DNA of 64,000 nt, taken from assembly GCA_964016885.1 (NCBI GenBank), contig OZ024746.1:78740001-78804000 (forward strand), given 5' to 3'. The notes beneath the pieces are model-generated. The model searched no databases, was not told the origin of the DNA, and worked only from the letters and a program-made list of their open reading frames with translations. Source of the DNA: Eledone cirrhosa. Taxonomy: Eukaryota. Positions 55,633 to 56,767 of the stretch are shown here, one piece after another. A program made the position numbers and the translations under genes. How positions within the stretch are numbered: the stretch's first letter is position 1; each line of letters starts with the position of its first letter.

Positions 55633-56767
55633 TAAACAATTAAGTTCAAAATGTACATCTACATATGCATACTGAAATACTAGTATGCATATGAATACAC
55701 ACACGTATACATATGTAGATGTACCAAGTCTTTCACTGGTTACTTTACTGTGAGTATCCAGCTATTCTGTATGTAAACACACAGACAAACCGGTTTTTAG
55801 AGTCATACTGGTTTTTGAGGAAACACCTTTCCTCTATTCTCCAGAAAGCCAGACAAGGAATATTGAACTAGTTTCGTTGTTGTTACAACTCATCAGCAAT
55901 ATTTACCTATCTACCGGCCTTTCTGGAGAATCGTAAAAGCACATATCGTTATATGCTTTTTCTATGAAAATTAGTAGTGGGCAGACTAATTTGCATAGAG
56001 TGTGAGTACGTACCGGTTCAACGGAGACGATAAAAACAAATAACGAAACGAAATTAAATTTCGTTTCGTTTGTAACTCACTTTTGTATGACTGACGCTTA
56101 AACAATAGCTGGATACTCACAGTAAAGTAACCAGTGAAAGACTTGGTACATCTACATATGTATACGTGTGTGTATTCATATGCATACTAGTATTTCAGTA
56201 TGCATATGTAGATGTACATTTTGAACTTAATTGTTTAAGCGTCAGTCATACAAAAGTGAGTTACAAACGAAACGAAATTTAATTTCGTTTCGTTATTTGT
56301 TTTTATCGTCTCCGTTGAACCGGTACGTACTCACACTCTATGCAAATTAGTCTGCCCACTACTAATTTTCATAGAAAAAGCATATAACGATATGTGCTTT
56401 TACGATTCTCCAGAAAGGCCGGTAGATAGGTAAATATTGCTGATGAGTTGTAACAACAACGAAACTAGTTCAATATTCCTTGTCTGGCTTTCTGGAGAAT
56501 AGAGGAAAGGTGTTTCCTCAAAAACCAGTATGACTCTAAAAACCGGTTTGTCTGTGTGTTTACATACAGAATAGCTGGATACTCACAGTAAAGTAACCAG
56601 TGAAAGACTTGGTACATCTACATATGTATACGTGTGTGTATTCATATGCATACTAGTATTTCAGTATGCATATGTAGATGTACATTTTGAACTTAATTGT
56701 TTAAGCGTCAGTCATACAAAAGTGAGTTACAAACGAAATTTAATTTCGTTTCGTTATTTGTTTTTAT
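55633..56767. mobile_element. Retrozyme-like element: 466-bp HHR-containing unit, one copy on minus and ~1.4 tandem copies on plus, circularly permuted
   Basis: Period 466 on both strands (55634/56100 and 56105/56571). HHRs at 55859-55903(-) and 56433-56477(+). (TA)n flanks. Confidence 0.8.
56433..56477 (+). ncRNA. Minimal type I hammerhead ribozyme, canonical core
   Basis: AATATTG-CTGATGA-GTTGT aaca ACAAC-GAAA-CTAG-TT-CAATATT. Confidence 0.85.

What the first reader, a model, noticed from the sequence alone, without database searches (positions are those of the whole stretch)
55633..56767. 466-bp hammerhead-containing unit copied as circular permutations: a candidate retrozyme / circular-RNA retroelement
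Seen: the minus copy runs exactly one unit (AAACAAT at 55634 and 56100). It then folds back into ~1.4 tandem plus-strand units (ATAGCTGG at 56105 and 56571). The copies are nearly identical but start and stop at different phases, and both outer ends merge into (TA)n through TA microhomology. Each unit has one canonical minimal HHR whose stem I is extended by TTCTCCAGAAAG/CTTTCTGGAGAA. It also has other long hairpins (GTACATCTACATATG..CATATGTAGATGTAC; AACGAAACGAAATT.AATTTCGTTTCGTT) and no sizeable ORF. Known: animal non-LTR retrozymes are tandem HHR repeats that produce small circRNAs, and minimal HHRs with a palindromic stem III occur in Penelope pLTRs and can act as dimers. Inference: a recent rolling-circle-like reverse transcription of a 466-nt circular RNA, using Penelope machinery in trans.
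Basis: partly seen in the sequence, partly recalled or inferred. Interest (0 to 1): 0.92.

Follow-up and report, generated by a model that had tools for sequence, protein, structure and literature searches.

The report
Ribozyme circle pasted by Penelope-type machinery
This is one of thousands of young genomic copies of a small non-coding RNA that carries a self-cutting ribozyme, and the shape of the copies suggests that a borrowed transposon enzyme copied an RNA circle round and round from both ends of a DNA break.

Summary
In detail: a 466-nt, ORF-free unit with a type I hammerhead lies as a 474-nt minus arm joined head-to-head to a 1.44-unit plus arm, inside (TA)n. It belongs to a large, young family (5,113 exact hammerhead-core hits). 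The 'circular permutation' reading needs correcting: 108 of 114 arm 3' ends fall at two fixed sites (A, unit position 128-133; B, 198-202), and only 5' ends are random. 48 of 69 insertions have A at one outer end and B at the other; none has A+A, one has B+B. A coding Penelope-like family in this genome shows the same two-site pattern. Arrays look clonal: 0.3% difference within loci, across both arms, against 3.2% between loci. A base change found only at this locus sits in all three passes, on both arms. 382 passes cross the ribozyme cut site without an indel. Best reading: a non-LTR retrozyme, inserted by twin-primed rolling-circle reverse transcription of a circular RNA by a Penelope-like enzyme. 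Cleavage, the RNA circle and the partner element were not shown.

The parts
55633..56106 (-). Left arm: 474 nt (1.02 units), primed at site A (unit position 133 = window 55633), ends at random 5' position 126
56104..56767 (+). Right arm: 1.44 units, primed at site B (unit position 202 = window 56767), 5' end at position 466; 5-nt deletion in the last partial unit
56104..56106 (.). Head-to-head junction, 3-nt inverted microhomology
56105..56570 (+). One full 466-nt unit (position 1 = 56105), the inferred circular RNA
56433..56477 (+). Type I hammerhead ribozyme; core starts 56440; predicted cut after 56470 (GUU); palindromic 2-bp helix III
55859..55903 (-). Second copy of the hammerhead, in the minus arm; predicted cut after 55866
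56405..56500 (+). Extended helix I (56405-56417 with 56488-56500) that would hold the cut ends together
56221..56239 (+). Small hairpin whose loop region holds priming site A (56232-56237)
56238..56306 (+). 69-nt 'tail' between sites A and B, with the 13-bp hairpin 56266-56294; site B at 56302-56306
56146..56217 (+). Long TA-rich hairpin, conserved in the sister family
56223..56223 (+). Base change at unit position 119, shared by all three passes (55647, 56223, 56689); the 26-nt pattern with it is found nowhere else in the assembly
55392..55632 (.). Left TA-rich microsatellite target
56768..56810 (.). Right (TA)n target

Best explanation
A non-autonomous non-LTR retrozyme mobilised by a Penelope-like element (PLE). 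Steps: (1) tandem arms elsewhere in the genome are transcribed (inferred); (2) neighbouring hammerheads pair through the palindromic helix III and cut out 466-nt monomers, which a host ligase closes (inferred from known retrozymes; the dimer fold is predicted here); (3) a PLE RT/GIY-YIG protein binds the 69-nt tail, cuts both strands of a (TA)n or AT-rich target about 8-15 nt apart, and each DNA 3' end primes cDNA at one edge of the tail, one at A and one at B (ends shown; enzyme inferred); (4) each polymerase runs round the same circle from a fraction of a lap to tens of laps and stops at random (array pattern shown; circle inferred); (5) the two cDNA ends join through short inverted microhomology and are filled in, giving head-to-head arms with 3' ends outward (junctions shown).
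For: Ends: 108/114 arm 3' ends at A or B; of 69 insertions 48 A+B (39 with both arms over 50 nt), 0 A+A, 1 B+B; 10 more A+B among 19 further loci, no A+A or B+B (read by eye). 5' ends uniform (KS p 0.72), 1/114 within 5 nt of the cut site. A coding PLE family with an 875-aa RT/GIY-YIG ORF shows A+B in 6 of 6 loci where both ends were visible, of 38 examined. Clonality: 0.29% within arm, 0.27% between arms, 3.2% between loci, 62 loci; shared alleles are in all passes in 355 locus-allele cases (245 across both arms) and in some passes in 33. This locus's variant: 3 hits in 3.0 Gb, all here, both arms. 382 passes across the cut site, none with an indel, 12 with a substitution. The youngest lineage has units identical between loci and arrays up to 25.6 units; median within-locus diversity 0.02% in arrays over 12 units against 0.42-0.59% in those under 6. 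Fold conserved with a sister family: 27 of 155 pairs with two-sided changes, 0/500 shuffles, slid controls 4-9. Two copies of the hammerhead region are predicted to pair through helix III (-38.4 against 2 x -17.5 kcal/mol), and helix III has probability 0 in the monomer circle.
Against: No RNA evidence was obtained. No coding PLE with sequence similarity to the unit among 85 PLE-bearing loci examined (38 + 30 + 17). Of 5 variants tested genome-wide only 1 was strictly private; one was fixed at one locus and sporadic in 4 others; three mark multi-locus lineages, so a homogeneous tandem source exists for those. Some arrays show block patterns (L087 2-unit repeat, M2 period-3 pattern in one arm) that suggest later duplication. 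The tail is 69 nt against 30-40 nt described for PLEs. The Rfam score is under the gathering cut-off, and 8 of 9 Xenopus retrozyme dimers did not cleave in vitro in the 2026 preprint. No listed contig from other runs bridges this locus's own junction, and the private base was not seen in run X3.
Confidence: 0.72

Rival explanations
1. Same element and same PLE twin priming, but the template is a long linear, uncut transcript of a homogeneous tandem source locus.
For: Three of five tested variants are shared by multi-unit loci that could be sources. The anole PLE uses uncleaved RNA in vitro and its hammerhead is dispensable there (PMC11167929). No RNA circle seen here.
Against: No source for this locus's variant exists in the assembly. 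In the fully listed 468-nt lineage the longest arm (17.6 units) has no longer source among 69 of 69 hits, though one locus abuts an N gap. New alleles are all-or-none across passes (355 against 33), which needs a one-unit bottleneck at some generation. An arm of about 51 units, judged from hit spacing only, would need about 24 kb of uncut RNA.
Confidence: 0.14
2. Short PLE-type insertions that were later expanded and homogenised by unequal crossing-over or conversion (satellite route, as proposed in the 2026 preprint).
For: Block duplications in L087 and M2. Low diversity in long arrays is also expected from concerted evolution.
Against: Both inverted arms are long and share alleles; arm lengths correlate (rho 0.43, n 48; confounded by age). 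Long arrays sit in lineages with zero difference between loci, leaving no time for many exchanges. This locus has a private base in both arms and no other substitution.
Confidence: 0.08
3. Multi-unit arms come from the polymerase jumping end-to-end between ribozyme-cut linear monomers.
For: Haplotype switches exist (L045, L139), so template switching or recombination happens.
Against: No indel scar in 382 passes over the cut site, no pile-up of 5' ends there, and the two switches map elsewhere (positions 59-98 and 419-8). Jumps in a pool with 3% diversity should change haplotype often.
Confidence: 0.04
4. Assembly or chimeric-read artefact, or just the pLTR of a longer coding Penelope element.
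For: This locus's own junction was not bridged by a listed contig from another run.
Against: The same architecture with fixed A/B ends recurs at dozens of loci with different junctions. Contigs of runs X1 and X3 (one sample) hold other head-to-head joints at depth about 9-39. No arm among 87 loci runs into an ORF-bearing element as a pLTR would, as far as the fetched flanks show.
Confidence: 0.02

Closest known systems
Metazoan non-LTR retrozymes (Cervera and de la Pena 2020, PMC7229834; Li, Clavereau and Pollet 2026, bioRxiv 10.64898/2026.07.22.740005)
   Same: Non-coding tandem units with one type I hammerhead each, low GC, thousands of copies, highly paired predicted circle; PLE mobilisation through circles is proposed there.
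   Different: Those texts, in the parts read and by word search, do not describe head-to-head arms, two fixed priming sites, (TA)n targeting or clonal haplotypes per locus ('inverted' 0 times in PMC7229834, once in a reference title in the preprint). Unit is 466 nt against 170-400 nt. They show RNA circles by experiment; here none is shown. No pLTR relative was found here, unlike 24 of 57 Xenopus families.
Endonuclease-bearing Penelope-like elements (Craig et al. 2021, PMC8557442; anole Poseidon, Frangieh et al. 2024, PMC11167929)
   Same: Partial tandems, inverted 5'-truncated copy, optional tail at one end, microsatellite or AT-rich target; two adjacent internal start sites that bound the tail; both DNA strands cut and extended in vitro.
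   Different: No ORF; tail 69 nt; whole-unit repeats up to tens of copies; the strict one-A-one-B rule is counted here, whereas the anole work saw no difference in start site between strands.
Non-autonomous Chlamys elements such as MRC1 of Chlamydomonas (passage in PMC8557442)
   Same: Non-coding PLE parasites with multicopy head-to-tail insertions.
   Different: They share 3' sequence with coding families and that clade lacks canonical hammerheads.
L1 twin priming (recalled, no call)
   Same: Both target 3' ends prime cDNA, giving head-to-head arms joined by microhomology.
   Different: In L1 it is an occasional event with one primer at the poly(A) tail and one at a variable internal site on a linear RNA; here it is the rule, at two fixed sites.
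Plant LTR retrozymes (as described in the introductions read)
   Same: Non-coding, hammerhead-bearing, circular RNA intermediates.
   Different: Type III hammerheads in LTRs, PBS/PPT, 4-bp target duplications, Gypsy partner.

Membership tests
Metazoan non-LTR retrozyme | Type I hammerhead in every unit | tested here: met
   Rfam HH9 E 5.8e-8, under gathering score; core invariant and helices I and II with two-sided changes in the sister family
Metazoan non-LTR retrozyme | Short tandem units, dimers to large multimers, dispersed, many copies | tested here: met
   465-468-nt periods, 5,113 core hits, control 0; arms 0.1-21 units in fetched loci
Metazoan non-LTR retrozyme | No protein coding, GC under 50%, no LTR architecture | tested here: met
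   Longest ATG ORF 19 aa sense, 50 aa antisense; GC 35%; arm maps. PBS and PPT were not searched separately.
Metazoan non-LTR retrozyme | Target duplication longer than 4 bp when present | tested here: met
   By eye in L138 (8-17 nt), L194 (7-15 nt), and about 12-13 nt in L018, L049, L078; not readable at this locus, which lies in (TA)n
Metazoan non-LTR retrozyme | [quoted passage not shown] | tested here: not met
   One hammerhead per arm, opposite strands; met by many other loci of the family
Metazoan non-LTR retrozyme | Self-cleavage of the transcript | not testable with these tools
   Only a predicted dimer fold
Metazoan non-LTR retrozyme | Expression as linear and circular RNA | not testable with these tools
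   No run on record as RNA was listed
Autonomous Penelope-like element | ORF with RT and GIY-YIG endonuclease | tested here: not met
   No ORF in the unit
Penelope-like insertion signature | Partial tandem plus inverted 5'-truncated copy | tested here: met
Penelope-like insertion signature | Two adjacent start sites bounding an optional tail | tested here: met
   A 128-133 and B 198-202, 108/114 ends; tail 69 nt, longer than the 30-40 nt described
Penelope-like insertion signature | Microsatellite or AT-rich target | tested here: met
   Flanks printed; not counted formally
Penelope-like insertion signature | Sequence relation to the pLTR of a coding PLE | tested here: inconclusive
   None in 85 PLE-bearing loci, out of 6,722 and 10,596 candidates of two searches
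Minimal PLE hammerhead (PMC4209133) | No helix III, long helix II, short helix I | tested here: not met
   Helix I 7 bp, helix II 4 bp, 2-bp helix III with palindromic loop
Plant LTR retrozyme | Type III hammerhead in two LTRs | tested here: not met
   Type I topology, no LTRs

The most novel reading that the evidence does not exclude
These arrays are a direct genomic record of a telomerase-related Penelope enzyme doing twin-primed rolling-circle reverse transcription in the germ line: one ribozyme-made RNA circle, two active sites starting at the two edges of a bound hairpin, each copying up to about 50 laps (about 24 kb) in a single event. The same one-A-one-B rule, seen also in the coding family here, would then explain the tail, the inversion and the tandem pLTRs of Penelope-like elements in general.
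Probability: 0.5. Interest if true: 0.82.

Novelty: new variant of a known kind. Interest (0 to 1): 0.66.

Why it matters
Retrozyme circles have been proposed since 2014-2020 to be templates for PLE reverse transcriptase, and the origin of PLE tandem, inverted and tail structures is named as open in PMC8557442. In the parts of these papers that I read, neither point is shown from genomic copies. This young family supplies countable predictions: two mapped start sites, strict A+B pairing, 3' overhangs of about 8-15 nt, clonal arrays. A 466-nt RNA and intact PLE ORFs in the same genome make the mechanism testable in the published in vitro assay. With a sister family the class has about 30,000 hammerhead cores here, so it also shapes this genome by planting kilobase-long palindromes in microsatellites.

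Tried and rejected
No RNA holder was listed for the unit; this is no evidence on expression. Contigs only could be laid. The single contig in run X4 is 496 nt = 466 + 30, the length a closed loop gives in a 31-mer graph, but the run type is not on record and tandem DNA gives the same, so it is not used. Partner search: Pfam PF26215 was not in the library; the window's GIY-YIG piece found a large coding family without similarity to the unit; PF01541 gave several further families, none similar; two short matches to the L174 family did not stand up against shuffles. A 'longer' homologue search with the 60-aa piece found nothing. RNA editing: three clustered A-to-G changes define the 468-nt lineage, but they are not private and lineage-polarised changes showed no A-to-G excess (2 of 11), so editing is not claimed. 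Dimeric or trimeric circles: the period-2 and period-3 patterns break down at one pass or are confined to one arm, so later duplication is likelier. Strand-asymmetric minor variants (G>A 28 against C>T 13, p 0.04; C>G 8 against 0) were considered as polymerase errors, but the youngest arrays have almost no variants, so this stays unexplained. Free circular permutation of both ends rejected. Rows dropped: duplicates of the same locus before all counts; L040, L089, L028 and also L139, L045 from the mutation spectra. Sampling bias: set A (36 loci) was picked for near identity to this unit, set B (26) for an exact hammerhead core, so intact cores in these loci are no evidence of selection. The longest arrays (C5:39.86 Mb, C1:81.85 Mb, C3:113.97 Mb) were not read. 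Earlier-scan look-ups returned nothing.

Full report
Observation. The window holds a 466-nt unit (56105-56570; position 1 = 56105) as a minus arm 55633-56106 (474 nt, 100% identical) and a plus arm 56104-56767 (1.44 units, one 5-nt deletion), overlapping by 3 nt, with (TA)n on both sides. The unit has 35% GC and no ORF over 19 aa (sense) or 50 aa (antisense) from ATG when read as a circle. It folds far better than shuffles (z -11.1). It holds a type I hammerhead (Rfam HH9, E 5.8e-8, 38.6 bits, under the cut-off of 52) with a 7-bp helix I, 4-bp helix II and 2-bp palindromic helix III; the predicted cut follows position 366. By the definitions in PMC4209133 (passages read) this is the canonical metazoan form, which needs a second copy to fold, not the minimal form. 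In the predicted monomer circle helix III has probability 0, while two copies pair through it (-38.4 against 2 x -17.5 kcal/mol). The locus has one hammerhead per arm, so it is a dead-end product, not a source.

Family. The 3.0-Gb assembly has 5,113 exact matches to the 35-nt hammerhead core, control 0. A DNA search gave 590 candidates, 40 scored. I analysed 62 loci first (36 chosen by near identity, 26 the first core hits along contig C1) and 87 in all. A sister family of about 422-472 nt is colinear over the whole unit and has 24,649 core matches. The host is probably an octopus; this is inference from genome make-up and from the closest named PLE protein hit.

Ends. Copies are not freely permuted. 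108 of 114 arm 3' ends lie at site A (128-133, in a small hairpin) or site B (198-202), 69 nt apart; 5' ends are uniform round the unit (KS p 0.72), with 1 of 114 within 5 nt of the cut site. Of 69 insertions, 48 have A at one outer end and B at the other (9 of these through a second arm of only 7-19 nt), none has A+A, one has B+B, and 20 show only one classifiable end (binomial p about 1e-13 for 48 of 49). In the position-ordered set alone it is 19 of 27. Ten of 19 further loci are A+B and none is A+A or B+B (by eye). Central junctions mostly overlap by 0-6 nt or have a few extra bases; the longest overlaps (13 and 32 nt) use the unit's own hairpin arms, as expected when two antisense cDNAs must pair. 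Target duplications of about 8-15 nt are readable in five loci, which implies 3' overhangs on both sides. The sister family ends at the homologous positions.

Penelope link. A GIY-YIG fragment in the window (about 17.6-19.3 kb) belongs to a coding family with 6,722 candidates and an intact 875-aa RT/GIY-YIG ORF. It has the same head-to-head, (TA)n, two-site architecture: A+B in 6 of 6 loci with both ends visible, of 38 examined. PMC8557442 (passages) lists partial tandems, an inverted 5'-truncated copy, a 30-40-bp tail and microsatellite targets as PLE features and calls their origin open. PMC11167929 (parts 1-2 of 4) shows an anole PLE cutting and extending both strands and starting at two adjacent internal sites that bound the tail. 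So PLE machinery in trans is well supported by signature, but the partner is not identified: no similarity to the unit in 85 PLE-bearing loci.

Circle or not. Units differ by 0.29% within an arm, 0.27% between the arms of a locus and 3.2% between loci. Alleles shared between loci are present in every pass in 355 locus-allele cases (245 across both arms) and in only some passes in 33, 11 of which come from one locus. This locus's change at position 119 occurs three times in the assembly, all here, in both arms: one template was read past its own start. Against this, four other variants tested were not strictly private: one is fixed in 7 of 7 passes at one locus and sporadic at four others, three mark lineages of 69, 188 and 133 hits. 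In the fully listed 468-nt lineage units are identical between loci, arrays reach 25.6 units, and the longest arm has no longer source, with one locus ending at an N gap; arrays thus seem to be born long. 382 passes cross the cut site with no indel, and the two haplotype switches seen map elsewhere, which argues against jumping between cut linear monomers. Block patterns in two arrays show that later duplication also occurs. A source locus missing from this assembly cannot be excluded for any single case, but all-or-none alleles need a one-unit bottleneck at some generation.

RNA-level selection. Of 49 variants shared by two or more loci, 9 break a predicted pair against 20.3 +/- 2.7 simulated (unpolarised). 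Across 7 family-1 and 4 family-2 units, 27 of 155 pairs show two-sided changes (shuffles 18.8 +/- 2.1; slid controls 4-9), including hammerhead helices I and II; most reflect one event between the two families, and the structure was derived from the window unit, which favours it over slid controls.

Reads. No run on record as RNA was listed. Contigs of runs X1 and X3 (one sample) show other head-to-head joints at depth about 9-39, so the architecture is not a long-read artefact; none listed bridges this locus's own junction, and the private base was not seen in X3.

Known or new. It fits the non-LTR retrozymes of PMC7229834 (abstract, Discussion, part 1 of 3 of Results, word search) and the 2026 preprint (parts 1-3 of 5 and word search); both propose PLE mobilisation, the first through circles. 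Six literature searches (listings seen) gave no paper on cephalopod retrozymes or on twin-primed, clonal retrozyme arrays; an octopus repeat annotation (PMC13282606, word search) has no mention of ribozymes. The library lacks most subscription papers, and I read no supplements; the model figure S9 of PMC7229834 and the preprint's tables may bear on novelty. L1 twin priming is recalled, not looked up. Verdict: a new retrozyme family of a known kind, whose copies give unusually direct genomic evidence for a mechanism so far proposed only. Confidence: retrozyme about 0.92; PLE twin priming about 0.88; circular template about 0.72.

Noticed in passing
L032:1-1352, L116:2480-3146, L183:890-1464, L206:1867-2501 and others: Sister retrozyme family (about 422-472 nt, GUA triplet), 24,649 hammerhead-core matches, same fold, same two priming sites, head-to-head in (TA)n.
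   Followed up: partly
window 17600-19300; L126:1700-5480: Fragment of a coding Penelope-like family; an intact 875-aa RT/GIY-YIG ORF lies at C1:323.80 Mb. No hammerhead motif was found in L126. Linker zinc-finger-like motif suggests Neptune or Nematis type (not tested by a tree).
   Followed up: partly
window 53970-54730: Inverted and repeated pLTR-like pieces with a hammerhead-like core variant at 54009 and 54572; the same sequence flanks the coding PLE family of L171, L176, L179, L183.
   Followed up: partly
window 18346, 20534, 25435 (minus), 61186, 48816, 25791: Further hammerhead-like motifs of other repeat families; three pass a simple helix test.
   Followed up: no
window 5650-6789 (+) and 61718-62290 (-): Broken non-LTR retrotransposon ORF pieces with a zinc knuckle (weak zf-RVT hit, E 0.004) and a restriction-like endonuclease motif (recalled).
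   Followed up: no
window 56340-56347; M1 lineage (L076, L134-L140): An octamer-like motif is nearly invariant between the two families, yet three clustered A-to-G changes destroy it in the youngest 468-nt lineage, which still spread to 7 loci; it also lies in a stem, so it may be structural.
   Followed up: partly
G000:C5:39.86-39.885 Mb: One arm of about 51 units (about 24 kb) judged from pattern-hit spacing; not read.
   Followed up: no
L139, L045: One pass of an array carries a different haplotype: template switch between two RNAs or later recombination, away from the ribozyme cut site.
   Followed up: partly
87 family loci: Minor variants within loci are strand-asymmetric relative to the RNA sense (G>A 28, C>T 13; T>A 18, A>T 6; C>G 8, G>C 0), with a hot spot at position 391; unexplained.
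   Followed up: partly
L200, L032, L116: Insertions nest in or beside each other's (TA)n tails, family 1 with family 2 and family 2 with the coding PLE.
   Followed up: no
window 53350-53890: Short 116-178-nt spaced repeats with a shared 35-nt core.
   Followed up: no
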